DNA of 64,000 nt, from positions 81,865-145,864 of the forward strand of contig CAYNHV010000001.1 in the NCBI GenBank assembly GCA_964397315.1, given 5' to 3'. Positions 4,685 through 64,000 of the stretch are shown one piece after another. The number at the start of each line of letters is the position of its first letter. Within the stretch, counting starts at the first letter, position 1. This DNA is from an uncultured Methanosarcinales archaeon (GTDB lineage Archaea; Nanobdellota; Nanobdellia; Woesearchaeales; UBA12501). The notes below the pieces were generated by a model, which was given only the letters and a program-made list of their open reading frames with translations, did no database searches and was not told the origin of the DNA. The translations under genes were made by a program, and so were the position numbers.

Positions 4685-5395
4685 GACTCCTGATACTTCC
4701 CAAGGGATAATAGATCCATGCTTATAACTCCTGGTAATTCCCGCCCTTTAGGCGAGGGGGTGTTTGAGTCAATTTTTCCTGATACTTCCCTCCTCAGAGA
4801 GGATTTTGTGTTAATGACTCATGATACTTCCCTCCCTTTTTCTAGAACCATCATGCAGGTTCTTTACTTCTGAAACAGCACAACTCCCAGCTTCTGCCTC
4901 TAATAAGCCCCCCCAGTAATATGCTTAAAATGCTCTGTTGGAGTTGGTGCTATAAGCATGTGTGAGGGGGACGGAGGGCGGGATTTGTCCCTCTGTAATT
5001 GTGTTTGGGGCGGTGGAGAACTCTGGATTAATCAAAACACTTAGAAGATGCTCAATTTCGTGGAATTTCGCTGCGCTTAATCCCACCTGCGCATGAACTG
5101 AGTAATACCTTTCCGGCGGTTAAGTCTGGACTAATCAAAATACTTTGGGAATGCTTTTAATCATAGTACTTCCCACCCTCTCTGCACAACCACCCAGCAG
5201 GCTTACTGCTTCTCAGACATCACAACTCTCTGCTTCTGCCTCTAATAAGCCCACCCAATGATATGCTTAAAGCGCTCTGTGGAGTTGGTGCTCTCAAGCT
5301 GTTGAAGGGGGAGGTGGGCGGGAAAAATCAGTTTGTAATCGCGACTGGGGTGGAGGATATGTCAGGAGGAATTAATAATAGTATAGATTAGATTC
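4685..5395 (+). repeat. Dispersed intergenic element, copy A (four left units plus a tandemly duplicated core)
   Basis: Shares long blocks (e.g. CTTCTGCCTCTAATAAGCCC, GCGCTCTGTGGAGTTGGTGC, TCTGGATTAATCAAAA) with 15.1, 46.0 and 57.5 kb. Confidence 0.92.
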
Positions 5396-5484
5396 TTAAC
5401 CATGGTGTTTCCCTTATCTCACCAAGAAGCCCGCCCACTAGCCCATATGAATAAAATAACAAGAAAAAGGAATAAAAAACAAAA

Positions 5485-6858
5485 TCAGTAGTAAGTCTGG
5501 CTTGCGCCTTCCTCAAGCTCTTCCTCGTCATCTCCGCCTTTCAGCTTGTTGAAGCCGATTATGAGGCCCAGGATGACAAGCAGCACTATAAGGACTACAA
5601 GCCCCACGAGCAGGCCTTTCTTGACGCTGTCCCATCCTGTATCGTCCTGCCCTTCTCCCTCTACCACGTTGGTGCTGAGGGGGAACTCCTTGAGCACATT
5701 GCCGTCCTTCTTGACCTGCACTCCAAAGGTGTGCGAGCCGAGTGTTGAGTCCTCCTTTGCTGAGACATAGACATAGAATGTCTCTGTCTTTCCGGGCTCA
5801 ACAACAAGCAGTGTGCTTGGGCTTACCTTGACTGTGCCGAATGACTCAACCCCTGTAACCCCTAATGAGAAGCTTTTTGCCTCTGAGGCGGGGTTTGTGA
5901 CTGAAACAGGGTAGATGACTCCTCCCTGGCCTCTTACAGTGTCCTGAGTCTGGGGCCCTGCTGTTATCTTGACAGATTCTCCTGATGGTGTTTCATTCTC
6001 TGCAGGCTGGGTTGGTGTTTCCTCTCCAACCACAGAGACCATCTCGCTTTTCTCTGTCTCTTCATAGCCGTCGTCATACTCTATAGTAATCACAGCCTCG
6101 TAATCTCCTGATTCAGCTGTTGAAGGTATCCTCATGTACATTTCCTCTGTGGAGACTGAGTCCTCTGATTCAAGCTCGTCAATGTAATCCACTGACTGTA
6201 TGTGGAGGTCAGGTATCTCAACCTTTACCTTGACGCTGTCCTCGTCCTCTGACCCCACATTCTTGACCCTCACGGTTGTGAGCAGGGCTCTTCCTGCCTT
6301 AACCTCATTGCTTGGGTTGAACACGATATCCTTTATGAGGACTGCGTGCTTCTTTGTGTCAATCTTGAGGGGGTAGCTGTATGTTTTGACAGCGCCTGTC
6401 CTTCCGGCAACAGTGACCCTAAGGTCATAATCATCCCTCTCCATGAGGTCCGGAAGCTCAAGATCAAGCTCCTTTATGTAAAGGGTCTGGTTTTCAGCGT
6501 CAAATGTCTTTGAGGAGTCAGCAATGTTCTCATGCTCATCCCCGAATATCTGGGCTTCAACTGTCACGTCATCAACATCATTGTTGGCCATGACCTCTAC
6601 TTTCACCTCAACCTCCTGGTCTCTCTCAAGGTTGAGCCTTATCTCATCGCCGTTCTCAACAATGTCGCCGTTAATCTTTACCCAGATGACGCTCAGATCA
6701 GGAAGGTCTCCCTGGTTAAGAACGTCCTCATTATCATTTCTTGTAAAGTTGCCGTCTGTCCTGTTCTCATACTCAATGGCCTGTGCAGTGCTTGAAAACA
6801 ACAGCACAGCTAGAAGCGCGAACAAAACAAATGCTGTCTTCATTTTACTACCACTCAT
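5485..6858 (-). CDS. Putative S-layer/CARDB-like surface protein with C-terminal membrane anchor
   Basis: Signal peptide, acidic Ig-like segments (VRVKNVGSEDEDSVKVKVEIPDL), C-terminal TM helix and acidic tail ending TYY. Confidence 0.75.
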   Translation of the reverse strand: MSGSKMKTAFVLFALLAVLLFSSTAQAIEYENRTDGNFTRNDNEDVLNQGDLPDLSVIWVKINGDIVENGDEIRLNLERDQEVEVKVEVMANNDVDDVTVEAQIFGDEHENIADSSKTFDAENQTLYIKELDLELPDLMERDDYDLRVTVAGRTGAVKTYSYPLKIDTKKHAVLIKDIVFNPSNEVKAGRALLTTVRVKNVGSEDEDSVKVKVEIPDLHIQSVDYIDELESEDSVSTEEMYMRIPSTAESGDYEAVITIEYDDGYEETEKSEMVSVVGEETPTQPAENETPSGESVKITAGPQTQDTVRGQGGVIYPVSVTNPASEAKSFSLGVTGVESFGTVKVSPSTLLVVEPGKTETFYVYVSAKEDSTLGSHTFGVQVKKDGNVLKEFPLSTNVVEGEGQDDTGWDSVKKGLLVGLVVLIVLLVILGLIIGFNKLKGGDDEEELEEGASQTYY

Positions 6859-7051
6859 TTTAATACCTCCAATCAGCTGATAAAGCTAATTATGACTGAA
6901 TAATCGCTTATGAAACACCCCGCAAGATCCTTTTTTTAGTTGCTTGGTAATCGCAACTTGTATTTAAATGTTTCGATTATTTTAGCATAGTAGAGTAGTT
7001 AATCATTTTAACTATTATATAGATACTACACCCTTGCCTGTTTTGCGCGCC

Positions 7052-9355
7052 TCAACCCAGCTCCTCAACAACAAACACGGGCCTGTATTTTGTCCTGCTA
7101 ACCTGCTCATTATGTGCTGTAATCTGCACATCATACACTCCTGGCTCTGAGTCCTCTGGAATATCAATCCTGAGCTGCCTTGTTGTGCTTTCTCCCTCAC
7201 CAAGGTCAAATACTGTGCTGTCTGAAACACCAAGTCCCATGACAAGCGCCCTGTACTCCAGCCTCTCAAGTTCCCTGTCACCTGTGTTCTCAAAATACAC
7301 ATTAACAAAAAGCTCCTCTCCTGGCCTTACGTGATTCTCGCCGTACTCGTCAACACACTGCGAGTACAATAGTATCCTGCCAATGTAAAGCTCATAATCC
7401 TCATCCTCTTCTTCCGGCTCTTCATCCTCATCTTCCCCTGCCTCTTCCACTGTTATCACAACTGAATCAGAGGCTGTGTCGCCGTCAGCGTCTGTTATGG
7501 TGAGGTGTGCTGTGTAAGCGCCAGAGCTTTCATATGCATGACTTGGGTTTTCCTGGCCTGATGTGCTTCCATCTCCAAAATCCCATGAGTATGATATTGG
7601 GCTGTTGCCTGCGGAGCTTGAGCTGAAATCAACCTCAAGAGGCTCTTCACCTTCTGACGGATCTGCTGTAATGTTAACCTCTGCAGGAATGTCCTCATAA
7701 GGGGATGTGCTTATTGTGAAAACAAGGCTTCTTGGAGCGAATGATGATGCTGTTCCGTCACTGCAGAGCACATTCCAGGTGTATGTTCCGTCAGATATGT
7801 TATTGAGCCTGAAGAAGTCTATGAAATGGTTCTGCGTGGTCTGCTCTGCAGCAGGCCCAAAGCTTCCTGTTATGTTGGTGTAAAGTGTGCAGTCAAGCTC
7901 TTCTGAACTGTCATCATGGACCCCATAAGCAAATGTTATGTTGCTTGTGTTAAAGACTGAATAGTCAGAAGGATAAAGAAGGGCAACTTCAGGCGCCCCT
8001 GTCTCATTCTCCCCTGATTCATCATCATCCTCAGGATAAAGGCAGTCAGGATCATCCATGTCAACAAGCCCGTCACCATCATTATCAATGCCGTCAGAAC
8101 ATTGGGGAAGCTCCTCGTCTGATTCATCATCGTCCTGCTCATCCTCGCAGCCAGGATCCTCAGGATAATCTATGAGCCCGTCATTGTCATTATCCACTCC
8201 ATCAGAGCACTCAGGAAGCTCCTCGTCTGATTCATCATCGTCTTCAGGGCTTTCGCATCCAGGGTCAGTAGGGAAATCAATCAGCCCGTCATTGTCATTG
8301 TCCATACCGTCAGAGCACTGGGGAAACTGCTGTTCTCCTGTAACATTTATTGCAACACTGCCGCTGTCCTCCTCTCCTGCAGAATCCTCAACAGAGCAGG
8401 TGATGTTGTACAATCCTTCAGAAAACACCCTGTTAATGGAAAGCTGCCTGCTTCCTGTTTCTGTGCTGAAGAAAAGGCTTCCATTCTCGTATAATGAATA
8501 ATCAAAATGCCCTTCTCCCCCAGCAGCAGTGCAGTTAAGGATGACATCAAGAGGCTCTTCACCTTCTGACGGATCTGCTGTAAGGCTGATATTCAGGGGG
8601 GCTGCCGGAGGAGCCTCCTCCACTGTGAATTCCTCCTCCTCAATCACGCTTATTGTGTTGTAGCACTGGCTGTCAGGAACTGTTGTCTCTATCTCTGCCC
8701 TGTAGTCTCCCGGATCAAGAGAGATCTCGCTGCTTGAGACAGAAACGCTTGAGTCCATGAATATGTTCGCATATGCTGTGTCCTGGAACACAAGCTCATT
8801 ATTGCTGTCATAAATCCTGAACTCAGCCTCAACCTCTGAGGAGTAGAAATCCTCCCTGTAATCCTCAGGAACATAACCAACATTATTGTCTATCTCATTG
8901 AATGCGCTCTGCACCCCTGCTGTCATGCTCGCTACGCCTGAGTCCACATTGACATTAAAATCCTGAATCGGCGAGGAGCAGTCAGCCTTTTTTGTGAACG
9001 CTATGTCAAAGCTTGTTGAGCCTGTGCCGTGCCATGTTGCCCTGTACTCCATTGGAACATGGCCGTCTGCAAAATAGTAGGCTGCGTAGCCGTGCTGCGT
9101 GGCAAGGCTTGTGGGATAGATTATTGTAAGATAAGATCTTGCTCCTGAATCGCCGCTGCCAGGAAGCGGGCTGTCAAGGTCAAGATTGTCGCAGCCGCTG
9201 TCAAGGCATGGGTAGACGAGAACATCAACATGATCAACAGGATTCCCTGACTGGGCATCCCTGAAGTTGTAGGTTACGCTTACAGATGCTGCAACAGCTG
9301 CAGCTAGAATGATCATCAGAAATACAGGCGCCAGTAGTCTGGTTATTCTTTTCAT
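7052..9355 (-). CDS. Secreted PKD-domain protein with Asp/Cys-rich Ca-binding-like repeats
   Basis: Signal peptide; three CSDGxDNDxDGLxD repeats; PKD motif YSWDFGDGS...NPSHAY...GAYTAHLTITD. Confidence 0.85.
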   Translation of the reverse strand: MKRITRLLAPVFLMIILAAAVAASVSVTYNFRDAQSGNPVDHVDVLVYPCLDSGCDNLDLDSPLPGSGDSGARSYLTIIYPTSLATQHGYAAYYFADGHVPMEYRATWHGTGSTSFDIAFTKKADCSSPIQDFNVNVDSGVASMTAGVQSAFNEIDNNVGYVPEDYREDFYSSEVEAEFRIYDSNNELVFQDTAYANIFMDSSVSVSSSEISLDPGDYRAEIETTVPDSQCYNTISVIEEEEFTVEEAPPAAPLNISLTADPSEGEEPLDVILNCTAAGGEGHFDYSLYENGSLFFSTETGSRQLSINRVFSEGLYNITCSVEDSAGEEDSGSVAINVTGEQQFPQCSDGMDNDNDGLIDFPTDPGCESPEDDDESDEELPECSDGVDNDNDGLIDYPEDPGCEDEQDDDESDEELPQCSDGIDNDGDGLVDMDDPDCLYPEDDDESGENETGAPEVALLYPSDYSVFNTSNITFAYGVHDDSSEELDCTLYTNITGSFGPAAEQTTQNHFIDFFRLNNISDGTYTWNVLCSDGTASSFAPRSLVFTISTSPYEDIPAEVNITADPSEGEEPLEVDFSSSSAGNSPISYSWDFGDGSTSGQENPSHAYESSGAYTAHLTITDADGDTASDSVVITVEEAGEDEDEEPEEEDEDYELYIGRILLYSQCVDEYGENHVRPGEELFVNVYFENTGDRELERLEYRALVMGLGVSDSTVFDLGEGESTTRQLRIDIPEDSEPGVYDVQITAHNEQVSRTKYRPVFVVEELG
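8020..8330 (-). repeat. Intragenic tandem repeat, three units of about 108 bp
   Basis: GGAAGCTCCTCGTCTGATTCATCATCGTC at 8106 and 8214; encodes CSDGxDNDxDG units. Confidence 0.85.
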
Positions 9356-9414
9356 ATTATTGCCCTTCTTTTTAACACACCCTTAATATCTGCATGGGTG
9401 GATTATAATCAGCA

Positions 9415-12105: not shown

Positions 12106-12234
12106 GGGTAAGTAATAACTAATATTTAAATCTTTTGATTTTTGCTACTATAAAGTGAGTAAGAGATATACAGCTGTATTGCACAATATTTATAAAGACT
12201 CTGTTTTTTCACAAACTGAATCCAGGGGGTTTTT

Positions 12235-15072: not shown

Positions 15073-15090
15073 GCCATGTTCTAATGCATC

Positions 15091-15690
15091 TCATGATTTC
15101 TGGATATGTTTTTGTTGATTCCTTGTGGTACTCTCCGCCCTCTGGAAAAGATGTGGTTTTGTTAGTTTTTCATGGGGCTTCCCAGAGGGGTAACAGATTT
15201 ATGATTATAACTCCTGGTGCTTCCTTGGGAATATTGAGTTTATGATTGTTATTCCTGATGCTTCCCGCTAACCTGGTGAGATCATACTTAAGTTGGTACG
15301 TCCTGGTACCTCCCACCCTTACTGCACAACCAGACAGCAGGTTCTCTGATTCTGAAAAAGCACAGCTCCCAGCTCCTGCCTCTAATAAGCCCTCCCATTA
15401 ATTTGCTTAAATTGCGCTCTGTGGAGTTGGTGCGATTAGCATGTGTGAGGGGGAGGGGGGGTGGGATTTGTCCATCTGTAACTGTGATGAGGGCGGTGGA
15501 GAACTCTGGATTAACCAAAACACTTAGAGGAGATTTTTTAAGTATAGTGCCTCTTTTAAATTGCGCTTTTTGTGGGATTGAGCGCAGCGAAATCCCGCCT
15601 ACGCGTGAACAGAGTAATGCCGTTCTGGTGGAGAAATTAGGAGGATTCATATACTTATACAACATCCAGGAGGAATTAATATTAGATTAT
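15091..15690 (+). repeat. Dispersed intergenic element, copy B
   Basis: Left units at 15124, 15170, 15212, 15253 and 15301; core and right end CAGGAGGAATTAATA shared with copy A. Confidence 0.92.
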
Positions 15691-15825
15691 AATGCTCTGG
15701 AAGGCTTAAAAGTTTTGCATAACCCATGGAATGTTATTGGCCAGGATTCACAACCTAATGAAGAAACATTTAAAGCTCCAAAACCTTTTTAAATACAGTA
15801 TTAATCTCATCCCCTGGTTGTTGCA

Positions 15826-45922: not shown

Positions 45923-45998
45923 TGGCTGTTTATGCTGATAAAACCCGGGGGGCTGTCCATTCTATTGGCAAGATGGAGCTGACTTTTTTATTTTTGAT

Positions 45999-46410
45999 AA
46001 CTCCTGGTAATTCCAGCTATTTAGAGAATTTGCTTGTGTTTATGATTCCAGATTCTCCTCCTTAGAGTGGTTTGTTTATGATAATAACTCCTGGTACTTC
46101 CCACCCTTACTGCACAACCACTTAGCAGGCTCACACCTTCTGGAACAGCACGACTCTCTGCTTCTGCCTCCAATAAGCCCACCCAATGATATGCTTAAAG
46201 CGCTCTGTGGAATTGGTGCTCTGAGCATGTGTGAGGGGGACGGAGGGCGGGATTTGTCCATCTGTAACTGTGATGAGGGCGGTGGTTAAGTCTGGATTAA
46301 TCAAAACACTTAGAAGATGCTCAATTTCGTGGAATTTCGCTGCGCTTAATCCCACCTACGCGTGAACTGAGTAATGCCGTTCCGGAGGTCAAGTCTGGAT
46401 TAATCAAAAT
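45999..46410 (+). repeat. Dispersed intergenic element, copy C
   Basis: Left units at 46002, 46047 and 46089; 46225-46410 is nearly identical to 4955-5143. Confidence 0.92.
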
Positions 46411-46500
46411 ATGAATGGAAATTATTAATCAGAATGCTGCCTGTTCCTGGCTCTTAGCCCCATCAAAAGTATTTTAAATAACACCCTCTTTTTCCATCCC

Positions 46501-51169: not shown

Positions 51170-53452
51170 ATGCCCAAGAAACGCAAAGCAGGACTGTGGA
51201 TGGTGGTTTTGGTAGCTCTGGCTGTGATGGCAGGGAGTGTTTATGGTGAAATGATTACAAAATCATCTTCTTGTGGAGAAGAAGGAACTGTTTCATGCCC
51301 TCCTGAATGTGCTGAGCATGGTGTTGAGTGCACCACTTCCTCCTGCAGTCTTCCACAGTCTTACCATATAAATTGTGGACCCCCCTCCTCAGGTTCGGGG
51401 TGTGAAGGAACGTACGATGAAAACAGCGACCTGTCTAAAGGATTTTGCGCGAGTTTTTGTACGCAGCAGTCAAACCTTGAGTTTATAGAATGTTCTCAAG
51501 AGAACTGCGTCGCCTCCGGAGGCAGTGACAGTTCCTGTTGCTGTAATGATATGGTCTGCTATTATGAGGGTGTAAAAAAAATATGCACTTATGAGGTGAT
51601 TAGTTGTACAGATTCTGATAATGATGGATATTCTAAGGAAGGCGGAGAGTGCGGAATCGTGGATTGCGATGATTCTGACTCTTCCATAAATCCGGATTCT
51701 TCAGAAATCTGCGACGGCATTGACAATGACTGCGACGGCCAGGTTGATGAGGGCTGTGATGATGATGGTGATGATTATTGCGATGCTGAAATGGAGGTTG
51801 TAGGCACTCCTGGTGTATGCTCTAACGGAGGAGGTGACTGCGATGACACAGACCCTGACATAAACCCCTCAGCTGCAGAATCCTGCGACGGCATTGACAA
51901 TGATTGTGATGGCCAGGTTGATGAGGATTTTGACCTGCAGACTGACCCTGAGAACTGCGGCAGCTGCGGTAATGTATGCGGAGCAGATGAGACCTGCGAA
52001 GCAGGCGAATGTGTTCCTGCGGAGCAGGAATGCACAGACTTCTCTGACTGCCCTTCAGGCGAGGTTTGCAAGGGAGGCCTCTGCGTCAGGGGCATAATGG
52101 ACTGGAGCGATGATGACTTTGCAATATGCCACACTGAGACTTGCGCTCCGTCATGCGTTGTGCCTGAGGATGACACCATACTTAACAATGACACTGTCCT
52201 GTGCAGGGGCTATTATGAGGTGGCTGACCAGGCCAATAACGGCACTATAATATTCAACTCAAGCGGCATAGAGCTTGACTGTAATGGAGCAGAGCTGAGA
52301 GGGGACTGGACAGGAACAGGAATACTCGCTCCAAAGGACAATGTTAACATAACAGGCTGCAATATATCAGGGTACAGCACAGGAATAAACCTCAGCTCCT
52401 CATCATCCATTGTTGAGAAAAGCACGCTTAACAACACAATGGACCTTCTCATACAAGGATCCTCCAATGAGTTCTCCCTCAACCACTTCTACGGAGGAGG
52501 CGTGCAGGACTCAGGCAGCGGAAACGTGTTCTGCAGGGACAGCAAGGGAAGCTTCTACCATGAGAGCCTTGGATTTGAGAGCATAGGAGGCTCTGGAGAG
52601 AGCGAGGACTGCGGGCTCAGCATAATAACACAGCCCTCATACAGGTCACTCTTCTCCCCCGGCGAGGTGATTGACATCTCATGGAGCAGCCAGTCAACAA
52701 AATACAGCGAGCCTGTGAGCTACTGGCTCGGCTACTCTTATGAAGGCGGGGAGTGGAGCACCCTCTACACAGGAGATGGAACAAGCTACACATGGGACAC
52801 AGCTGAGAGCATAGACACAGGGGAGTATGATGTAAAAGTAATTCCCAATGATGGGTATGCCAACGGCACAATGAATTCCACCCTTATATTAATAAGCAAT
52901 TATGGTATTGTGGAAGGAGAAGTCTCCTGCAATGGAGATTCTGTTGAGGGAGCCACTGTGACAGTGGCTGGATACCCTGACACTACTGTAACAACAGAAA
53001 GTGGCGGCTCTTACACCATAGACAATGCGCCTTTCGGCACCCACACTATCACAGCATCAAAAGAAGGCAGGACAACAAGGCAGAAGAGCTACACTATTGA
53101 GTCAGGAGGTAACGATCAGGCAGAAGTTAACTTTGAGGATGTCTGCCCTGTGAGCCTTGACTGCGAGTCTGACTGCACTCTCAAGGGAGGGGACGTGTGC
53201 ATGGCAGAATGCAGCGGTTTTGAGGGCTGCTCTCTTGAGCCCTTGTGCGATGGTGTTAAGAAAGGCCTGCTCCTGGACACTGACGACTCGCTGATGCTCA
53301 GATGCTGCCAGGGAGAGATTGTTGAAAAGAGCGAGGAGATATCTGACGTGCAGCTGAATGAGACAGTTGACGCAGAGAACATAATAAGGACAACAAGGAT
53401 TGTCTATCACGAGGGCAAGCCTGTGAAGATGGTGGTGGTCACCTGGGAGTGA
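51170..53452 (+). CDS. Secreted multidomain protein (Cys-rich, DxDxDG repeats, beta-helix, carboxypeptidase-regulatory-like domain)
   Basis: CDGIDNDCDGQVDE twice; IELDCNGA; VEGATVTV...GSYTI...GTHTITASKEG. Confidence 0.82.
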   Translation: MPKKRKAGLWMVVLVALAVMAGSVYGEMITKSSSCGEEGTVSCPPECAEHGVECTTSSCSLPQSYHINCGPPSSGSGCEGTYDENSDLSKGFCASFCTQQSNLEFIECSQENCVASGGSDSSCCCNDMVCYYEGVKKICTYEVISCTDSDNDGYSKEGGECGIVDCDDSDSSINPDSSEICDGIDNDCDGQVDEGCDDDGDDYCDAEMEVVGTPGVCSNGGGDCDDTDPDINPSAAESCDGIDNDCDGQVDEDFDLQTDPENCGSCGNVCGADETCEAGECVPAEQECTDFSDCPSGEVCKGGLCVRGIMDWSDDDFAICHTETCAPSCVVPEDDTILNNDTVLCRGYYEVADQANNGTIIFNSSGIELDCNGAELRGDWTGTGILAPKDNVNITGCNISGYSTGINLSSSSSIVEKSTLNNTMDLLIQGSSNEFSLNHFYGGGVQDSGSGNVFCRDSKGSFYHESLGFESIGGSGESEDCGLSIITQPSYRSLFSPGEVIDISWSSQSTKYSEPVSYWLGYSYEGGEWSTLYTGDGTSYTWDTAESIDTGEYDVKVIPNDGYANGTMNSTLILISNYGIVEGEVSCNGDSVEGATVTVAGYPDTTVTTESGGSYTIDNAPFGTHTITASKEGRTTRQKSYTIESGGNDQAEVNFEDVCPVSLDCESDCTLKGGDVCMAECSGFEGCSLEPLCDGVKKGLLLDTDDSLMLRCCQGEIVEKSEEISDVQLNETVDAENIIRTTRIVYHEGKPVKMVVVTWE

Positions 53453-56102: not shown

Positions 56103-56175
56103 GGGTTTTTTGGCGAAAACCCTTGTATGGCGATTAAAAGTTTTGGCGATAAAAGTTAAGTATACTTGTTGGCGC
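56103..56175 (+). promoter_or_regulatory. Cluster of TGGCG(A) direct repeats upstream of ftsZ
   Basis: TGGCGA at 56111, 56128 and 56144; TGGCGC at 56170. Confidence 0.5.
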
Positions 56176-56313
56176 AAGTAAACTTGTTCTAGGGAGAATA
56201 TAGTGTAAGCCTATATTTAAATATTTAGGTAGTTTAGACTATATTCTCAAAAATATAAGCCACAGGCTATAAAAGGTGAAAGCTGGACAAAAACCAAAAG
56301 GGGGTTTAAGAAA

Positions 56314-57384
56314 ATGGATTTTATTGTGCAAGACGCTGTAAAACAACAGGAAGAGCAGAAGGAAGAGCTTGATCTGAATCAGGCCAACATAAAGGTGATT
56401 GGTGTTGGAGGGGCCGGAAACAACATGATAAACTGGCTCTACAAGAAGGGAATACAGGGCGCTGAGATACTTGCTGTGAACACTGACTCGCAGCACCTTG
56501 GAATAACAAGCGCTGACAAGAAGTTCGTCATCGGCCAGGAGCTCACAAGAGGCCTGGGCTGCGGAGGCTTCCCGAACAGGGGGGCAGAAGCGGCAAAAGA
56601 ATCAATACAGAATATCAAGGAAACCCTTAAAGAGTCTGACATGGTTTTTGTCTGCGCAGGCCTTGGAGGAGGAACAGGCACAGGCGCAGGTCCGGTAGTG
56701 GCCAAAGTGGCAAAAGACACAGGAGCGATAGTCATAGGAACTGTTACAATGCCCTTCAAGATTGAGAGGGCAAGGATAGACAAGGCAGAGTTCGGGCTGC
56801 AGCAGCTCAGGGAAGTCTCAGACACTGTGATTGTCATTGACAACAACAGGCTGGTGTCCATAGCAGGAAACCTTCCTGTGCAGCAGGCATTCGCAGTTGC
56901 AAACGAGCTCATCTCAACAATGATCAAGGGAATTGTGGAGACAATAGCCATACCAAGCCTGGTGAACCTTGACTATGCTGATGTGAGGGCGATAATGACA
57001 GATGGAGGAGTGGCAGCAATAGGAGTTGGAGCCTCAGACACAAGCAGCAAGGTTGACGAGGCAGTGAAGGGAGCGCTGACAAACCCCCTCCTTGACATAA
57101 GCTATGAGGGAGCGACAGGAGCGATCATACACGTGTGCGGAGGGCCTGACCTCACCCTTGACGAGATATCAAAGGTGGGAGAGCTTGTCACAGAAGCCAT
57201 GGACCCTGATGCCAATGTCATATGGGGCGCAAGAATTGACGACAATATGAAGGGCAAGCTCACAGTGATGACAATCATCACAGGAGTCAACTCCCCATGG
57301 ATACTCGGGAAGGCAGACTACAGCCAGCCAAGCCCTCAGGCGCAGCAGGTAAGCGACGAGCTGGGCATTGAGATGGTGAAGTAA
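56314..57384 (+). CDS. ftsZ: Cell division protein FtsZ
   Basis: GVGGAGNN, NTD, GLGGGTGTG, NLDYADV, VIWGARID. Confidence 0.97.
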   Translation: MDFIVQDAVKQQEEQKEELDLNQANIKVIGVGGAGNNMINWLYKKGIQGAEILAVNTDSQHLGITSADKKFVIGQELTRGLGCGGFPNRGAEAAKESIQNIKETLKESDMVFVCAGLGGGTGTGAGPVVAKVAKDTGAIVIGTVTMPFKIERARIDKAEFGLQQLREVSDTVIVIDNNRLVSIAGNLPVQQAFAVANELISTMIKGIVETIAIPSLVNLDYADVRAIMTDGGVAAIGVGASDTSSKVDEAVKGALTNPLLDISYEGATGAIIHVCGGPDLTLDEISKVGELVTEAMDPDANVIWGARIDDNMKGKLTVMTIITGVNSPWILGKADYSQPSPQAQQVSDELGIEMVK

Positions 57385-57408
57385 GGCAGTTTTATTTTCA
57401 TTAATTTC

Positions 57409-57454
57409 TGCCTTCATCTTTTAAACCACCCCCAAACCAACTTGGATGAAGGCA
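57409..57454 (+). terminator. Stem-loop downstream of ftsZ
   Basis: TGCCTTCATC (57409-57418) / GATGAAGGCA (57445-57454). Confidence 0.5.
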
Positions 57455-57457
57455 AGC

Positions 57458-57935
57458 ATTGCCCCTTCGGGGGCTTTTTCTTTTTTTTCTTAAGAAAAAG
57501 TAAGTCCTGGTGATTCTCGCCCTTGGGAGGCTGATATTTTGGTTTTTACAACTCCAGATTCCTCCCGCCCTTAGGAAGGTTTATTTATGATAATAAATCC
57601 TAATTATTCCCGCCCTTTCTGCAGAACCACCCAGCAGGCTATCTGATTCTAAAACAGCACAATTCCCAGCTCCTGCTTCAGATAAGCCCGCCCAATGATA
57701 TACTTAAAGCGCTCTGTGGAGTTTGTGCTCTCAAGCTGTTGAAGGGGGAGGTGGGTGGGATTTGTCTATCTGTAAGTGCGACTGGGGTGGTGGAGAAATC
57801 TGGATTAACCAAAATACACACAGGAGATTTAATCATGGTGCTTCAACGCTTAAAGGGCATTTTATGGGATTGAGCGCAGTGAAATCCCGCCTGCGCTTGA
57901 ACAGAGTAACGCCGTCCCGGAGGAGAACTCCGGAG
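57458..57935 (+). repeat. Dispersed intergenic element, copy D (with left-end hairpin module)
   Basis: Left units at 57505, 57553 and 57598; core matches the second core of copy A; first 46 bp shared with 63902-63946. Confidence 0.92.
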
Positions 57936-57980
57936 GGATCCCATTTTTACAATGAAATTATTCTTAGAACTCATAGACAT

Positions 57981-58679
57981 TCACTCTGTATCAACGCCTT
58001 TCTTCTTCATCTTCTCCTTTATCCTGTCCTTGTGATGGGTGATCTTCTCCTTCATGCTGTTCCACATCTTCCTTGCCTTCTCCTTACTCTCTTTTGCAGT
58101 CTCCTCCATCTGCAGGCTCCAGTCCCAAAGCACCATGTTAAAGTTCTTAACCCTGTTCTTGTACTTCTGTATGTAAACCATTGACTCAAAGACATCTCTT
58201 GGAGGCACCGGCACCTGCTCGTCAGGATAGCCAAGTGTTATCAGCATGTGCGGTACAGCTCTTGCAGGAGCGCCTATGGCCTCCATTACCTTGTCAGTGT
58301 CAAAAGCCCCGACCCAGCAGCTTCCCACTCCCAGGTCAGTTGCTGTTAGGAGCATGTTCTCTGCCACTGCAGCGCATCCCTGAGTGAGGTAGAACTTCCC
58401 CCTCTCGCCGTAATAATGCACGAGCCTGTCCTCTTTTCCGCATATCGCAAGTATCACAGGAGCCTCCTCTATCCAGTACTGCTTCAGGCAGGCCTCTGCC
58501 AGCTGCTTCTTAATCCCAGGGTCAGACACAACAACAATCCTGAAAGACTGCAGGTTGCCTGCGGCAGGAGCGTACCTTCCTGCCTCCAGAATCTGGACCA
58601 CCTTGTCCCATTCCACAGGGACATCAAGGTATTTTCTTATGCTCCTCCTCTTTTTGCAGATCTCAAGCACGTGGCTCAT
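57981..58679 (-). CDS. Nitroreductase family protein
   Basis: RRSIRKY, APAAGNLQ, AENMLLTATDLGVGSCWVG, LGYP. Confidence 0.93.
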   Translation of the reverse strand: MSHVLEICKKRRSIRKYLDVPVEWDKVVQILEAGRYAPAAGNLQSFRIVVVSDPGIKKQLAEACLKQYWIEEAPVILAICGKEDRLVHYYGERGKFYLTQGCAAVAENMLLTATDLGVGSCWVGAFDTDKVMEAIGAPARAVPHMLITLGYPDEQVPVPPRDVFESMVYIQKYKNRVKNFNMVLWDWSLQMEETAKESKEKARKMWNSMKEKITHHKDRIKEKMKKKGVDTE

Positions 58680-58802
58680 AACCTCAGCTTATATCCTATT
58701 ATTTAAATAGTTTTTGTTAAGCATGAACCCTGGCTGCGCTTTTGGGGTTTCATGCAGCGCAGGGTGGTAAAATTTATATATCCTCCTGCAAACTATTACT
58801 TC

Positions 58803-60560: not shown

Positions 60561-60609
60561 CAGCCTCATGATAAAAAAGAAAAGGAATAAATGAAAAAGA
60601 TTTGCCCTT

Positions 60610-61149
60610 TTAATCATAGGATGGCTTTGCAAGGTATGTCTTTGAGTCAGAGCCCAGCTCCTTCTCATTCTGCAGCCCGTCCCTTAATGTGGCCTTTATT
60701 GAGTTAGGCTCGTGCAGGCCTGAGACTGCCATGCTGACCTCCTCTGTCCTGAACATCTTGTAGCCTGAAGGCAGAGTCTCATACTCAAACCTTTTTATGC
60801 TGCTGTCGCTCTCTCCTCCCACATAAAGGATTACGATTGGCTTTATAGGGCTGTCACCAAAATTCCTTATGTCAAACTTGACTGATTCAACAACACCAAT
60901 ATCCTCATCATCTATTGTGTACTTGAGAGTTATCGGATCAGCAGTGTCTGATATTGATATCTCATAGGTGTCCTCAGGAAGTTCAGGCCCTGAGTCCTCT
61001 GCCTCACCTGTCTCCTGCTCCTCCTGCATTTCATCCTCAGCTTGAGTTCCTGCAGCATCCTGCTGCTCCTGCACAGGCTGCTCAGCACTGCTGCAGCCTC
61101 CAAGAGCAAGAATAATCAAGATTACAGACAAAAGTATTTCCTTTCTCAT
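60610..61149 (-). CDS. Putative lipoprotein
   Basis: MRKEILLSVILIILALGGC lipobox-like leader, acidic linker. Confidence 0.75.
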   Translation of the reverse strand: MRKEILLSVILIILALGGCSSAEQPVQEQQDAAGTQAEDEMQEEQETGEAEDSGPELPEDTYEISISDTADPITLKYTIDDEDIGVVESVKFDIRNFGDSPIKPIVILYVGGESDSSIKRFEYETLPSGYKMFRTEEVSMAVSGLHEPNSIKATLRDGLQNEKELGSDSKTYLAKPSYD

Positions 61150-61249
61150 TAAATCACCCCCATGATCTTATGCTGGATTGTGAACTTTCATTTATAAAGA
61201 TTGCGGAAGAGTGATGGTATGGGCCAGATATCTACTCTCAGATTAAAGA

Positions 61250-61495
61250 TTATCTAGTGTTGTTTAATCCTTTATAAAAGGTGGAGCGGATTATCTCAGC
61301 TTGGTCAAGACCCAGCTCTTGTTCTTCGTGACTTTTAGAATAATAGCAGTTAGGATTAATCTTTTGGCTGCTTTTAATTCTGTCTTCCACTTGGAATTGA
61401 AAAGTTTTTTCAGGACTATCAGGGGCAAAATATGGGTAAACATCCCTGATATCTCTTAGCTCAAAATTTCTCTCAGTGGTTCTTAATCTTGGCAT
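61250..61495 (-). CDS. Hypothetical protein (81 aa)
   Basis: ATG preceded by GGAGG and a TTTATAAA box; no recognisable motif. Confidence 0.5.
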   Translation of the reverse strand: MPRLRTTERNFELRDIRDVYPYFAPDSPEKTFQFQVEDRIKSSQKINPNCYYSKSHEEQELGLDQAEIIRSTFYKGLNNTR

Positions 61496-61865
61496 CTGAA
61501 TCCTCCTTTTCGTAAGCCGGTGAGCATCACAGATTTATAAAGCTTTCTCAAGTGAAGGGTATCTCCGGAATCTATGAAACAATTATCCAGCGGCAGACCT
61601 TATTTTTAGAGCAAAGAATTTCTTTATAAACCAGAACAAGGTTTTTCTAGTCCTAATCACCTTTCAAACAGACTCTGAAGGCTATCTAAAACAAGAAATT
61701 AGGAACCCAAACATTAAGCTTACAGGATCTTTTTTCTTGAGATTCCCTTCAACCAAGCTACTTATACCAGATAAATCTTCATAGGCTGTCATATATGAAA
61801 ATATATAGGGGAGCATACAAAAATTTAAATATCTGCAAAAGCATTATATCCCTGTTGCATATAAA

Positions 61866-61937
61866 ATCCCCTTTGAAAGAAGTCCCTTAAGGGCGCTTCA
61901 TTGCATAAGCGGTGGAGCTTGACGAGTAAGAGGGGTG
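61866..61937. ncRNA. Candidate structured RNA next to the DUF3800 gene
   Basis: CCCCT...AGGGG outer stem enclosing GAAGTCCC-TTAA-GGGCGCTTC and CGCTT...AAGCG hairpins; GC-rich within AT-rich DNA. Confidence 0.45.
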
Positions 61938-61949
61938 TTGTAACAATAT

Positions 61950-62687
61950 TCATTTCTTTCTTAATACCTGGCCAGAGAGTTTAGCTTTTCCCCCCGATAC
62001 AAAATTAATGTAATAACTGTCTTTATTCTCAAATTTTCTAAACAAGGCACCGCTGATTATATCTGTTGCCTGCAAGAGCTCTGATTGCCTGGAGTTTTTA
62101 TGTTCAATTATTAGAGGAAAACGTGTCTCATCACAATCTTTCATCTTTGAATATTCCTTCTCATCTATGACTCTAAAAGATACCGGTACATTACTATGTT
62201 CCTTTTTGCTTCCATCTCCATTATCTTCTATTACCTTTGAGGTTTCATACTTCTCAAGTGAAAAATAATTCACTTTATTCCTGTTGCTGAAGAAATTTAA
62301 GTCAGCTACAACCTTCTTTGGAGGTATGCTGTTGGAATTATTGAAGATATGTGTGAACAGGTAACCTAAGATAGTGGGTTTAACATCCTCCTTTATTGCG
62401 CCTTCTTTTACAAAGCACAAATAGTAGATATGCATATCAATATTGGATAATTCTTTCAGAAATCTCTCTAAAAGTTTTTTGTCAGGAAAACCGTAAAACT
62501 TGATCTCTCCTCCATGCTGGTTTAGCCATTTGGCGTGTTTGTTTTTCTTCAAAATGGTTTGTTTTACATTTCTAACAAGTTTTGTGATTCTTTTTACTTT
62601 TCTGGTGCACATCAGTACTAAGATAAGGTGGCCACTATCACTGCCGAGATCACCACTCTCATCCAGATAAGCAAATTCCATAATCAT
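61950..62687 (-). CDS. DUF3800 domain protein (RNase H-like)
   Basis: AYLDESGDLG, EIKF, LLQATDIISG; AT-rich. Confidence 0.88.
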   Translation of the reverse strand: MIMEFAYLDESGDLGSDSGHLILVLMCTRKVKRITKLVRNVKQTILKKNKHAKWLNQHGGEIKFYGFPDKKLLERFLKELSNIDMHIYYLCFVKEGAIKEDVKPTILGYLFTHIFNNSNSIPPKKVVADLNFFSNRNKVNYFSLEKYETSKVIEDNGDGSKKEHSNVPVSFRVIDEKEYSKMKDCDETRFPLIIEHKNSRQSELLQATDIISGALFRKFENKDSYYINFVSGGKAKLSGQVLRKK

Positions 62688-62784
62688 CCTTACAGAGGGT
62701 GTACTTTATTAAGATTTTGCTCTGTCAGGAGCTTTCATGAGAACTCTTAAAATAAGGGGCTTTACAGACCTTAGAAATATCAAA

Positions 62785-62856
62785 TGCCCCTGCCGGGAAT
62801 CAAACCCGGGTCTCCAGGACCGCAACCTGGTATTCTATTCATTAGACTACAGGGGC
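62785..62856 (-). tRNA. tRNA-Arg(GCG)
   Basis: GCCCCTG/CAGGGGC acceptor, CCAGG-TT-GCG-GT-CCTGG anticodon arm, CCGGG-TTTGATT-CCCGG T-arm. Confidence 0.9.
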
Positions 62857-62911
62857 CTGGAGGGCTTTAACAAACTCTCATTTAAAAAGAAATCGGAAAT
62901 CTGCTTTCAAA

Positions 62912-63796
62912 TCACTGCTTTTTTATTGAGTTCTTCCTGCTGCTTATCCTGTCCCTTATGTTGTTGAATCCGTTCCTCAGGGCAGTGCCTGAGTGTATCC
63001 TCACTGAAGGGCCTATGTACCTTGAGTGTTTTGTCAGCGCTTTTGAGTATGATATTGCCCTTGGAAGCATCTTTGTCTCCCTCCCTGCCACATAGTTCTT
63101 CTTCTTTATTATTGAGTCAAGGAAGGAATTGACATCATCAGCTCTTGAGTAAGTGACAACAGATCCCAGCTTGTAGAGGGTGTGGCCGTCAGAGCCTCCT
63201 GTTATGCCCAGTTTTTCCTCAAAAGCCCACTCAACAGCCCTCACATTAAGCCTTCTTAGGATGAGGCCGCATATGACCTCTGCGCAGTCAAGGTGTTTCA
63301 TTATTCCCCTGCTTATCTTTCCCTTCTTTATCTTTTTCATGAAATCCCATCTGGGCGTTGCCCTTGGGTGTGCTGCTGACACGATTGCGTTGTAATCCTT
63401 TGCCCTCCTTGCGATCTCCAGGGATGAGAGCTTCAGCGCCATGTAAGGGTTCTTGTCCTTGTTGTCTTTTACGTGCTTTTCATAGAACTCTGTCATGTCT
63501 TTCAGGCTGTAAAAATAAGCGAGAAGGTGAGGTCCTTCTTTTGATGATATCTCCATGCCGTTTATCAGCGGAACATTCCTTTCCCTTGCTTCTTTTCTTG
63601 CGTCAGCGCATGCCTTTATGTTGTTGTGGTCTGTGATGGCAACGCCCACACCCCTCTTATCTGCGAGCTTTATTATTGATTTCGGCCTTGTGAATGTGTC
63701 AGAATACCTGCTGTGGAAGTGCATGTCAGCGCAGAAGAACCCCTCTTTTTTCAGCTGCCTGAGCTGCGGAACTCCGAAATGTATCCTCTCTATCAT
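62912..63796 (-). CDS. PHP domain metal-dependent phosphoesterase
   Basis: DMHFHSRYSD, AITDHN, GMEIS, AHP, GGSDGH. Confidence 0.92.
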   Translation of the reverse strand: MIERIHFGVPQLRQLKKEGFFCADMHFHSRYSDTFTRPKSIIKLADKRGVGVAITDHNNIKACADARKEARERNVPLINGMEISSKEGPHLLAYFYSLKDMTEFYEKHVKDNKDKNPYMALKLSSLEIARRAKDYNAIVSAAHPRATPRWDFMKKIKKGKISRGIMKHLDCAEVICGLILRRLNVRAVEWAFEEKLGITGGSDGHTLYKLGSVVTYSRADDVNSFLDSIIKKKNYVAGRETKMLPRAISYSKALTKHSRYIGPSVRIHSGTALRNGFNNIRDRISSRKNSIKKQ

Positions 63797-63901
63797 ACAA
63801 GGTTATTTCTGAAACAGCTTTATAAATGTTGCTGAACCTGGAAGTTCAGGGCGGATTGTCTGAAGCTCTTATAATGCCTCTCAAGGTCTCTTATAGCCGT
63901 T

Positions 63902-64000
63902 ATTGCCCCTTCGGGGGCTTTTTCTTTTTTTCTTAAGAAAAAGTAATAAACAGCACAAGACTCCTGAAGAGATATGTTTATGATTTCTGGTGCTTTTATG
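63902..64000 (+). repeat. Probable start of a fifth element copy (E), cut by window end
   Basis: ATTGCCCCTTCGGGGGCTTTTTC(T)nCTTAAGAAAAAGTAA matches 57458-57503, followed by ACTCCTGA and TTTATGATTTCTGGTGCTT unit-like sequence. Confidence 0.75.

What the first reader, a model, noticed from the sequence alone, without database searches (positions are those of the whole stretch)
4685..64000. Family of large, co-oriented, non-coding fold-back elements dispersed about every 13 kb
Seen: homologous 0.4-0.7 kb intergenic blocks at 4685-5395, 15091-15690, 45999-46410 and 57458-57935, plus a probable start at 63902. All lie in the same orientation regardless of neighbouring gene direction (between minus genes, between plus genes, between convergent genes). 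Each complete copy has C-rich left units, an about 200-bp conserved core and G-rich right units that are inverted versions of the left ones (57550-57570 AACTCCAGATTCCTCCCGCCC vs 57784-57806 GGGGTGGTGGAGAAATCTGGATT). An inner stem pairs AGCACAACTCCCAG (4877-4890) with CTGTTGGAGTTGGTGCT (4935-4951); variants in copies B and D give G-U/G-T wobbles on the + strand. No reading frame is conserved between copies and no transposase is in the window. Inference: a possibly undescribed non-autonomous mobile element (REPIN/MITE-like), a multicopy structured RNA, or strand-polarised chromosome-organising sites. Such a repeat load is unexpected in a compact DPANN genome.
Basis: partly seen in the sequence, partly recalled or inferred. 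Interest (0 to 1): 0.85.

Follow-up and report, generated by a model that had tools for sequence, protein, structure and literature searches.

The report
Abundant modular intergenic repeat in Woesearchaeote
A small DPANN archaeal genome carries about ninety copies of a previously undescribed, non-coding, modular repeat between its genes; it behaves like a proliferating DNA element rather than a proven structured RNA, and its means of spread is unknown.

Summary
The five blocks belong to one family with 77 intergenic loci and 91 profile matches to the ~215-nt core. That is 1.8% of a 1.47-Mb, 61-contig genome whose same-family relative is labelled Candidatus Woesearchaeota.

Each locus is polar: a 5' array of C-rich ~45-nt units, then one or two cores, then G-rich units that are degenerate inverted copies of the 5' units.

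Evidence for a proliferating DNA repeat:
- It is not coding and has no Rfam match.
- It was found in 2 of 17 family genomes, with weak traces in a third, and in 0 of 150 other genomes of the order.
- Four orthologous sites in same-genus genomes lack it.

- Co-orientation holds for all 9 loci on this contig. Genome-wide it is only a tendency (28 same versus 11 different neighbours) and does not follow GC skew.
- Base-pair covariation is absent in two alignments.
- Folding is barely better than shuffled sequence.
- No crisp terminal repeats, target duplications or autonomous partner were found.

The only candidate enzyme is a single-copy IS200-type Y1 transposase, and nothing links it to the repeat.

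A separate young hairpin cassette sits at one fixed core position in 7 cores.

Verdict: a new variant of the prokaryotic intergenic repeat kind, of moderate interest.

The parts
4676..5381 (+). Locus A: left-unit array (4676-4814), core 1 (4815-5032), linker plus S module (5033-5157), core 2 (5158-5372), short tail
   Evidence: Limits from all-against-all BLAST of the loci. Cores from profile R1 (C1:86679-86896 and C1:87022-87236, minus 81864). S module 5053-5145, family D4.
15091..15699 (+). Locus B: degenerate and intact left units (15091-15298), core (15299-15515), linker plus S module (15565-15657), tail with an AT-rich TATA-like stretch ending ...ATAATGCTCTG
   Evidence: (C1:97163-97379). 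It lies between AglB and a GT2 gene, which are 17 nt apart in same-genus genome G003.
45986..46419 (+). Locus C: left units (45986-46084), core (46085-46301), S module (46322-46414)
   Evidence: (C1:127949-128165). It lies between the BacA/UppP gene and the RNase P p30 gene.
57501..57979 (+). Locus D: left units (57501-57593), core (57594-57809), S module (57857-57949), terminal module ending one base before the stop codon (57981-57983) of the minus-strand nitroreductase gene
   Evidence: (C1:139458-139673). In G001-G003 a small minus-strand ORF lies here instead.
63978..64000 (+). Locus E, first left unit only. The locus runs on beyond the window (core at window-equivalent 64107-64355).
   Evidence: (C1:145971-146219).
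57385..57498 (+). NOT part of the family. This is a host segment downstream of ftsZ: an 11-bp stem hairpin, then GCCCC-TTCG-GGGGC and a T-run.
   Evidence: It matches four same-genus genomes that lack the element at 75-86% identity. It folds at -26.7 kcal/mol, z = -2.28. Its last 41 nt recur at 63902-63942 (family D16). The exact hairpin occurs only twice in the genome.

Best explanation
This is a lineage-restricted, non-coding, composite DNA repeat that has multiplied in the intergenic regions of this Woesearchaeote.

Shown: a locus is built in one polarity. It starts with one to about five C-rich ~45-nt left units (...TTTATGATAATAACTCCTGGTACTTCCCRCCC...). One or two ~215-nt cores follow, in which invariant motifs alternate with blocks of shuffled variants. 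The invariant motifs are TTCCCNCCCTT, ATAAGCCCNCCC, GGGGG, GGGNGGG, TGTAA and GGGNGGNGG. G-rich right units (GGGCGGTGGAGAACTCTGGA...) end the locus; they are degenerate inverted copies of the left units.

Inferred mechanism: new copies arise by a strand-specific copy process supplied in trans. Arrays then grow by local duplication, and dispersed copies exchange blocks by recombination at the invariant motifs.

Candidate enzyme: the only one seen is the single-copy IS200-type Y1 (HUH) transposase on contig C20, which acts on single-stranded hairpin DNA. This step is a guess (about 1 in 4). The conserved motifs would then be what the copying machinery, or a host protein, recognises.

No role as a structured RNA is shown.
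For: Abundance and place:
- 77 merged loci cover 26,102 nt, 1.77% of the genome. All lie between called ORFs.
- Profile R1 finds 91 core matches in G000.
- 25 of the 77 loci lie within 300 nt of a contig end.
- Summed contig depth over the elements is 129, 81 and 51 in three DNA runs, against roughly 8, 6 and 4 in most other bins.

Polarity and grammar:
- 131 of 131 left-unit motif matches in or near loci are on the locus strand, as are 47 of 47 right-unit matches.
- Only 10 left-unit matches lie elsewhere, against 18 in a reversed-genome control.

Not ancestral at its sites:
- AglB-GT2 spacer: 17 nt in G003 and at most 77 nt in G004, against 753 nt here.
- PHP gene to its neighbour: 43 nt in G002 against 694 nt here.
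- NTP-transferase locus: at most about 220 nt in G001 and G004 against 888 nt here.
- ftsZ-nitroreductase locus: other sequence lies there in G001-G004.
- The AglB and BacA loci of G007 have no match to R1 better than E = 0.34.

Patchy distribution:
- R1 finds G000 (91 matches), G007 (17) and G004 (2 weak, right half only) among 17 family genomes.
- It finds 0 of 150 other genomes of the order.
- A pattern scan of 185,579 species genomes hit one other MAG only.

Not coding: the best frame is open in 14 of 42 cores.

Not a known RNA.

Recombination: 2044 of 2556 informative site pairs show all four gametes. Private variants are no rarer in conserved columns (51 in 108) than in variable ones (32 in 110), so the variable blocks are shared alleles and not decay.

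Local duplication: 7 of 7 neighbouring loci less than 5 kb apart share orientation.

For the Y1 idea only: both element-bearing genomes have a Y1 gene. Y1 is present in 5 of the 17 family genomes.
Against: - No crisp terminal inverted repeats or target-site duplications; locus limits are ragged.
- No autonomous relative. No protein family is multicopy at 60% identity or more, except ORFs that lie inside the repeats.
- TnpB (PF07282, PF01385), reverse transcriptase (PF00078) and IS110 transposase (PF01548) were not found in the 93%-complete genome.
- No near-identical copies. Best-neighbour identity of the cores has a median of 0.87 and a maximum of 0.94, so recent transposition is not shown.
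- Motifs are invariant all along the core: 50 of 218 columns against 1.2 expected at equal rates. This is unusual for MITEs and leaves room for a function of the whole core.

Against Y1 in particular:
- The gene scores as IS200 (86.8 bits, cut-off 55) and falls below the REP-transposase cut-off (52.1 against 80).
- It is not flanked by the repeat.
- Three family genomes have a Y1 gene but no element.
- The G007 left units I read do not resemble the hairpins flanking the G007 Y1 gene.
- Element orientation does not follow GC skew: 28 of 60 agree.
Confidence: 0.55

Rival explanations
1. The cores are a multicopy family of structured non-coding RNA genes read from the + strand. The AT-rich part of each left unit would serve as a TATA-like promoter and the T-runs after the right units as terminators. 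The C-tracts would pair with the G-tracts.
For: - 50 of 218 core columns are invariant across 42 copies from two genera, against 1.2 expected.
- In the helices I chose, G-U cells outnumber A-C cells 108 to 23. C-to-T changes (0.105) are twice as common as G-to-A (0.053). This fits constraint on the + strand, but the helices were picked allowing G-U on that strand, so the count is biased.
- Mean folding z is -0.82 on the + strand against -0.47 on the - strand.
- The TTTATGATAATAA stretch lies about 20-33 nt before the core, and T5 runs follow many terminal right units (read; their role is my inference).
Against: - No covariation. RNAalifold gives -11.4 kcal/mol with a covariation term of -0.39, and -10.8 with -0.19 when 8 G007 copies are added.
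- Named-structure counts equal the shuffles: score 0.104 against 0.102, reached by 157 of 500 shuffles; and 0.098 against 0.101, reached by 396 of 500.
- The top mutual-information pair (0.41) is at the null maximum (0.40).
By my reading of the alignment it is poorly kept in some G007 copies.
- No Rfam family matches.
- Seven cores are split by an inserted cassette.
- No complementary targets were found for the variable blocks: 24 antisense against 24 sense matches.
Confidence: 0.2
2. The loci are host-used double-stranded DNA sites. Arrays of a roughly 25-bp motif, in opposite orientation on either side of a core, would be bound by a host protein for chromosome organisation or for regulation of neighbouring genes.
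For: - The unit arrays have a strict order and strand: 131 of 131 and 47 of 47.
- Motifs are invariant.
- Neighbouring loci share orientation more often than not: 28 against 11, binomial p = 0.009; all 9 on contig C1.
Against: - The repeat is missing from 14 of 17 family genomes (3 of the 4 same-genus ones) and from four orthologous sites, so it is not a conserved host feature.
- Without contig C1 the orientation excess is 20 against 11 (p = 0.15).
- There is no relation to GC skew (28 of 60) and no robust relation to the strand of neighbouring genes: 27 and 25 of 60 agree within 5 and 10 kb, 21 of 60 within 20 kb (uncorrected p = 0.03). The classes by flanking-gene direction are 15, 14, 14 and 9.
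- No binding protein is known.
Confidence: 0.1
3. The family is an assembly or binning artefact, for example a chimeric repeat from another organism.
For: Many loci lie at contig ends: 25 of 77.
Against: - Long contigs from three separate runs cover the window flanks and run into the elements with no differing letters. One example is an 11,169-nt contig covering 46587-57755.
- Copies lie inside long contigs, between housekeeping genes.
- A second MAG carries 17 diverged copies.
Confidence: 0.01

Closest known systems
BOX elements of Streptococcus pneumoniae and BIMEs (REP clusters) of enterobacteria. Architecture recalled from memory, not tested against their sequences.
   Same: Intergenic, non-coding and multicopy. 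Built from a small set of modules, with a variable number of repeated sub-units in a fixed order and polarity. No transposase of their own.
   Different: There is no sequence relation; blastn found nothing in the plasmid or phage collections and nothing matches in Rfam. Here a long (~215-nt) core with invariant motifs lies between two arrays that are inverted relative to each other. The host is a DPANN archaeon.
REPIN-RAYT systems
   Same: Many intergenic copies with inverted arms. A single-copy Y1 (HUH) gene is present in the genome. Single-strand, strand-specific mobilisation would fit the polarity.
   Different: - REPINs are about 100 bp, with two short palindromic REPs and a variable spacer (passage read). 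Here the middle is long and conserved.
- The Y1 gene scores as IS200 and is below the REP-transposase cut-off.
- It is not flanked by the repeat.
- REPINs are stated not to have been detected in archaea (10.1101/2021.07.10.451892, passage read).
MITEs, including the archaeal ones counted in PMC11602168
   Same: Short, non-coding, intergenic and multicopy, with a patchy distribution. The left and right ends are inverted relative to each other. The census names a Woesearchaeal genome among the archaea richest in MITEs, at 105 per Mb (passage read).
   Different: No crisp terminal inverted repeats, no target-site duplication and no related autonomous IS. The ends are arrays of degenerate units. 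I could not see the census supplements, so I cannot tell whether this family is in its list.
IS200/IS605-derived miniature elements (PATEs)
   Same: Rich in hairpins, with polarity and no target duplication. An IS200 copy and tnpA-less derivatives exist in this genome.
   Different: The ends of the large repeat do not match the IS200 end hairpins (CCCCRACCTTTAGGT...). They share only a loose C-rich-stem plus TTTAGG look in some G000 left units. TnpB is not found.

Membership tests
MITE | Short, non-coding and multicopy | tested here: met
   Loci span roughly 60-880 nt as merged BLAST intervals; those delimited are 181-720 nt. There are 77 loci. The best frame is open in 14 of 42 cores.
MITE | Defined terminal inverted repeats at both ends | tested here: not met
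   The left and right units are degenerate inverted copies, but locus limits are ragged and share no terminal sequence.
MITE | Target-site duplication flanking each copy | tested here: not met
   None was visible at the 48 delimited loci. No exact empty site from a close strain was available, so short duplications cannot be excluded.
MITE | Related autonomous IS with the same ends | tested here: not met
   There is no multicopy protein family. The left-unit motif is not found outside the loci above chance. Nothing was found in other genomes, viral contigs or metagenome contigs.
REPIN-RAYT | Single-copy RAYT-class Y1 transposase | tested here: not met
   There is one Y1 gene. It scores as IS200 (86.8 bits, cut-off 55). 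The REP-associated model gives 52.1 bits against a cut-off of 80.
REPIN-RAYT | The Y1 gene is flanked by the repeat it mobilises | tested here: not met
   R1 finds no significant match in the 3.3-kb locus around the gene (best E = 0.7). Its flanks carry other hairpins.
REPIN-RAYT | Two short palindromic REPs in inverted orientation around a variable spacer, about 100 bp in all | tested here: not met
   The arms are arrays of ~45-nt units, and the middle is a conserved 215-nt core. The definition is from the passage read.
Rfam structured RNA family | Match to a curated covariance model | tested here: not met
   At gathering score the window has only two tRNAs. At E up to 10 the best hit over locus B is 13.9 bits against a gathering score of 40.
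Structured RNA (any) | Base pairs kept through compensatory change | tested here: not met
   The observed covariation equals the shuffled controls. The best-kept helices (C-tract with G-tract) almost never vary, which says nothing either way.
Structured RNA (any) | Expressed as a discrete transcript | not testable with these tools
   No RNA run is listed for this organism.
IS200/IS605-derived miniature element | Ends carry the hairpins of the parent IS | tested here: not met
   The IS200 end hairpins are absent from the ends of the repeat. True mini-IS200 copies exist elsewhere in the genome.

The most novel reading that the evidence does not exclude
This would be the first archaeal counterpart of a REP/REPIN-like system. 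A single-strand-mobilised, strand-polar repeat would be maintained over the long term in a DPANN lineage, serviced by a single-copy IS200-type Y1 transposase or by an unknown enzyme. Its invariant C-tract and G-tract motifs would act as recognition sites on one DNA strand. Its core would also be the homing site of a second, currently active hairpin cassette.
Probability: 0.15. Interest if true: 0.75.

Novelty: new variant of a known kind. Interest (0 to 1): 0.42.

Why it matters
DPANN archaea have small, gene-dense genomes, yet one repeat family takes up 1.8% of this one and breaks its assembly at about a fifth of the contig ends.

The family is restricted to two of seventeen related genomes. 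It is therefore a marker of recent genome dynamics in a lineage that cannot yet be cultured.

If its spread depends on a single-strand transposase, it would extend REP-like biology to archaea, where a preprint (passage read) states that REPINs have not been detected.

The fixed-site insertion of a nearly identical hairpin cassette into diverged cores gives a natural target-and-invader pair that could be tested in vitro.

In practice, annotators should mask this family. Its spurious ORFs of 70-130 aa would otherwise be called as genes.

Tried and rejected
Known RNA. Rfam at gathering score and at E up to 10 over locus B gave nothing.

Known mobile DNA. blastn against the plasmid and phage collections gave no match.

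Coding. No frame is conserved.

Partner enzymes. TnpB (PF07282, PF01385), RT (PF00078) and IS110 (PF01548) were not found in the genome. No protein is multicopy.

Guide-RNA idea. The variable block at alignment columns 73-90 has 24 complementary and 24 same-sense near-matches elsewhere in the genome; reversed controls gave 11 and 10. The block at columns 181-205 has 1 and 2, with controls 2 and 0. Rejected.

Replication polarity. Element strand agrees with the sign of the local GC skew in 28, 28 and 29 of 60 loci, using 5, 10 and 20 kb on each side. Agreement with local gene-strand bias is 27, 25 and 21 of 60. The last figure has an uncorrected p of 0.03, in the opposite direction, and is not robust. 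The genome is in 61 contigs, so origins are unknown.

In-place purifying selection. A tree-based count suggested it: 50 invariant columns against 1.2 expected, with 70% of the tree length in terminal branches. I withdrew that reading. Private variants are as frequent in conserved as in variable columns, and recombination is rampant.

Expression. No RNA holder is listed. The three DNA runs come from one microbial-mat study.

Empty sites within the population. Contigs of the three runs showed no joint that cleanly skips an element. The joints seen link one element copy to another. A loose end behind 57499, seen in all three runs, is not in this assembly and was left unexplained.

Wider collections. 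Two IUPAC patterns found nothing in viral or metagenome contigs. These scans need exact matches to the pattern, so diverged relatives would be missed.

The supplements of PMC11602168 were not seen; they may list this family among its archaeal MITEs.


Full report
1. THE OBSERVATION

The repeat finder confirms homologous blocks at the stated places. The families are 134 nt in 5 copies, 209 nt in 3, 118 nt in 4 and 93 nt in 4. I read all five stretches.

The window is G000:C1:81865-145864 of a 1,471,575-base genome in 61 contigs, rated 93% complete.

Copy number:
- blastn with the four window copies gives 77 merged loci when hits up to 300 nt apart are joined. They cover 26,102 nt, 1.77% of the genome.
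- A sequence profile of the core (R1, built from 42 copies) finds 91 matches in G000 at E up to 0.01.
- All loci lie between my called ORFs.
- 25 of the 77 loci lie within 300 nt of a contig end.
- Summed contig depth over the elements in three DNA runs is 129, 81 and 51, against roughly 8, 6 and 4 in most other bins.

The family is therefore real and multicopy, and its count is probably an underestimate.

A same-family genome that also carries the repeat is titled Candidatus Woesearchaeota. The DPANN guess is thus reasonable.

2. ANATOMY

Every locus has one polarity; BLAST hits within a locus never mix strands. From 5' to 3' a locus contains:

(i) One to about five left units of about 45 nt. 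Each has an AT-rich stretch followed by ACTCCTGGTACTTCCCRCCC.

(ii) A core of about 215 nt.

(iii) Optionally a linker (CTGGATTAAYCAAAACACTTAGA) followed by an 'S module' of about 93 nt or by a second core.

(iv) Right units of the form GGGCGGTGGAGAACTCTGGAGGAAT. These are often followed by a T-run and ...ACAATGAGCAGTATCTTTAACTCATAAACAGG.

The order and strand of the units are strict:
- The left-unit motif occurs 141 times with up to 2 mismatches. Of these, 131 are in or near loci, and all 131 are on the locus strand.
- The right-unit motif is on the locus strand in 47 of 47 in-locus matches.
- Matches outside the loci number 10 and 27, no more than in a reversed-genome control (18 and 33).

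By my own reading, the reverse complement of a left unit resembles a right unit at roughly two thirds of positions.

Locus limits are ragged. The outermost units fade out. No shared terminal sequence or flanking duplication is visible at the 48 delimited loci.

3. THE CORE

In the 42-copy alignment, the alignment tool lists 45 invariant and 61 nearly invariant columns. They are clustered in motifs: TTCCCNCCCTT, GCAGG, GCACAACT, ATAAGCCCNCCC, GGGGG, GGGNGGG, TGTAA and GGGNGGNGG. Between the motifs lie blocks with several discrete variants.

- Mean pairwise identity of the 40 G000 cores is 0.76. Best-neighbour identity has a median of 0.87 and a maximum of 0.94. G007 copies average 0.65 against G000.
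- With an equal-rate tree of length 5.44 substitutions per site, 1.2 invariant columns are expected and 50 of 218 are seen.
- Variants private to one copy are not rarer in conserved columns (51 in 108) than in variable ones (32 in 110).
- 2044 of 2556 informative site pairs show all four combinations.

My reading is that the variable blocks are old shared alleles, shuffled among copies by recombination at the invariant motifs, and not neutral decay. The invariance reflects constraint on the lineages that get copied. Selection acting on each resident copy is not shown.

4. STRUCTURED RNA?

- Rfam gives only two tRNAs in the window and nothing over locus B at E up to 10.
- RNAalifold on the 42 cores gives -11.4 kcal/mol with a covariation term of -0.39. 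Only 2 of 17 pairs show any double change.
- I then named a structure of 36 pairs.
  - Of its cells, 90.8% pair, against 90.5% after shuffling.
  - The covariation score is 0.104 against 0.102, reached by 157 of 500 shuffles.
- Adding 8 copies from the other genus changes nothing. RNAalifold gives -10.8 and -0.19. The score is 0.098 against 0.101, reached by 396 of 500 shuffles.
- The inner stem is kept in 87.7% of cells in that alignment, with 4-10 unpaired cells at each pair. By my reading it is poorly kept in some G007 copies.
- Mutual information between distant columns peaks at 0.41. The maximum over 30 permutations is 0.40.
- Core folding is only slightly better than dinucleotide shuffles: mean z = -0.82 on the + strand (8 of 40 below -2) and -0.47 on the - strand (3 of 40 below -2).
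- One hint of a single-strand constraint remains. In my chosen pairs, G-U cells outnumber A-C cells 108 to 23, and C-to-T changes are twice as frequent as G-to-A. The pairs were chosen allowing G-U on the + strand, so this is weak.

The best-kept helices almost never vary, so they remain untested rather than refuted. Expression could not be examined, because no RNA run is listed.

5. ORIENTATION

- On contig C1 all 9 loci are on the + strand. On other contigs the strands are mixed, for example C2 -+-+++++, C3 --+-+ and C5 +--++.
- Neighbouring loci agree in 28 cases and differ in 11 (p = 0.009). Without C1 the counts are 20 and 11 (p = 0.15). All 7 pairs closer than 5 kb agree.
- Element strand is unrelated to the direction of the flanking genes: the four classes hold 15, 14, 14 and 9 loci, of the 52 with both flanks.
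- It is also unrelated to local GC skew: 28 of 60 agree.

Co-orientation is thus a regional tendency, explained in part by local duplication. It is not a genome-wide rule.

6. DISTRIBUTION AND EMPTY SITES

- blastn finds the core in 2 of 41 genomes, counting G000 itself: only G007, of another genus in the same family, besides G000.
- Among the 17 genomes of the family, the profile finds G000 (91), G007 (17) and two weak right-half matches in same-genus G004. The other 14 have none.
- It finds 0 of 150 other genomes of the order, under stricter filters.
- An exact-pattern scan of 185,579 species genomes hit four contigs of one Woesearchaeota MAG. Viral and metagenome collections gave nothing.

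Orthologous sites were compared at four loci:
- AglB and GT2 are 17 nt apart in G003 and at most 77 nt apart in G004, against 753 nt here.
- The PHP gene and its neighbour are 43 nt apart in G002, against 694 nt here.
- The NTP-transferase locus has at most about 220 nt in G001 and G004, against 888 nt here.
- Downstream of ftsZ, all four same-genus genomes share a roughly 100-nt hairpin segment with G000. G001-G003 then carry a small minus-strand ORF of 121-138 aa where G000 has element D.

The AglB and BacA loci of G007 have no element.

The repeat is therefore not ancestral at these sites. It entered or expanded in particular lineages.

7. WHAT MOVES IT?

- No protein family is multicopy.
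- TnpB, RT and IS110 transposases were not found.
- There is one Y1 (HUH) gene, at C20:6920-7330. It lies beside an ISL3 transposase ORF that runs off the fetched locus.
- NCBIfam calls it IS200 (86.8 bits, cut-off 55). The REP-associated model stays below its cut-off (52.1 against 80).
- Its flanks carry hairpins of the form CCCCRACC-TTTA-GGTYG. Some G000 left units look loosely similar (CCCGCC-CTTTA-GGCGAGGG). The G007 left units I read do not resemble the hairpins flanking the G007 Y1 gene.
- Y1 genes occur in 5 of the 17 family genomes. These include both element bearers, but also three genomes without the element.

By my recall, Y1 transposases act on one DNA strand, use hairpins and leave no target duplication. 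That would fit the polarity and the missing duplications. The link is a lead only.

Published context:
- The passages of PMC6006769 that I read say only the IS200-type subclass of Y1 proteins occurs in archaea.
- A passage of PMC11602168 lists a Woesearchaeal genome among the archaea densest in MITEs, at 105 per Mb.

My searches for 'Woesearchaeota' with 'repetitive extragenic palindromic' found no paper. 'DPANN' with 'miniature inverted-repeat' found three papers. I read passages of only one of them (the census), and those passages do not describe this family.

8. A SECOND ELEMENT INSIDE THE FIRST

Seven cores are interrupted at the same position, between ...GGAG and GGCGGGA..., at profile position about 161. 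The interruption is a cassette of 4-6 short hairpins, 115-181 nt long.

- Over the 21 pairs of these loci, the first 88 nt of the cassette are 98-100% identical. The host core halves are only 67-87% identical.
- All 7 cassette copies with an intact 5' end lie in cores, in one orientation. I saw no flanking duplication in the junction sequences.

This is a young, site-specific invader of an older repeat. It also shows that single cores can be broken without obvious cost.

9. VERDICT

The finding is a genuine, previously undescribed repeat family. It works most like the modular intergenic repeats of bacteria (BOX, BIME/REP; recalled from memory). It fails the membership tests for MITE, REPIN-RAYT, IS200-derived miniatures and any Rfam RNA.

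I rate it a new variant of a known kind, with moderate interest. The mechanism of spread and any host role remain open.

Noticed in passing
G000:C1:38501-38682, C2:70094-70274, C3:110305-110424, C8:40168-40340, C9:15160-15340, C25:16322-16499, C33:5208-5327 (all outside the window): A cassette of 4-6 short hairpins, 115-181 nt long, is inserted at one fixed position of seven different cores. The cassette is 98-100% identical between copies, while the host cores are only 67-87% identical. It has a single orientation and I saw no flanking duplication. It comes in a long and a short form.
   Followed up: partly
window 5061-5087 and 46330-46356 versus 15573-15599 and 57865-57891: The hairpin of the S module (GGRATT-loop-AATCCC) occurs in two states that are reverse complements of each other. 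Genome-wide, 11 copies have one state and 8 the other. The context is otherwise collinear, which points to small DNA inversions at a hairpin.
   Followed up: partly
window 57385-57498: A roughly 100-nt non-coding segment lies just downstream of ftsZ. It has an 11-bp stem with a loop containing CCACCCCCAAACC, then GCCCC-TTCG-GGGGC and a T-run. It matches four same-genus genomes at 75-86% identity. It folds at z = -2.28. No Rfam match reaches a gathering score. It may be a 3' UTR element or a small RNA.
   Followed up: partly
window 57458-57498 and 63902-63942: The same 41-nt hairpin plus T-run (88% identical) lies directly before two elements 6.4 kb apart. In G002 the second site is a 43-nt spacer. 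The hairpin may therefore have been copied to the second site together with an element.
   Followed up: partly
G000:C20:5459-8806 (L016); C1:65728; C3:95751; C3:96633; C5:63962; C33:32; C55:3122: There is a single IS200-type Y1 transposase gene beside an ISL3 transposase ORF, and a tnpA-less mini-IS200 at C1:65728. A small repeat, bounded by TTGACCAT...ATGGTCAA, carries the IS200-like hairpin CCCCAACCTTTAGGTTGGGG. Five copies were seen (C3:95751, C3:96633, C5:63962, C33:32, C55:3122).
   Followed up: partly
L074:1502-1604 and L076:241-346 (genome G004): Two roughly 100-nt sequences resemble only the G-rich right half of the core (GGGGGTGGCGGGCGGGATT...GAGGGTGGTGGA). One lies next to a probable tRNA gene, judged by my reading of the sequence. 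They may be a related half-element or a remnant.
   Followed up: no
L084, L085, L088 (G001-G003), between ftsZ and the nitroreductase gene: A small cysteine-rich ORF of 121-138 aa on the minus strand (one reads MNNCVICKE...) is present in three same-genus genomes. It is absent from G000, where element D lies instead.
   Followed up: no
window 8009-8336 and 51662-51933: In-frame tandem repeats occur inside two large ORFs. One has a 108-nt period, in the minus-strand ORF 7052-9355. The other is a 174-nt repeat in the ORF 51170-53452.
   Followed up: no
window 15288-15665 (-), 15403-15792 (+), 57723-58184 (+): Spurious ORFs of 125-153 aa lie wholly or partly inside the repeats. Similar ORFs elsewhere form the only 'multicopy protein' cluster of the genome. 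They are likely to be mis-annotated as genes.
   Followed up: yes
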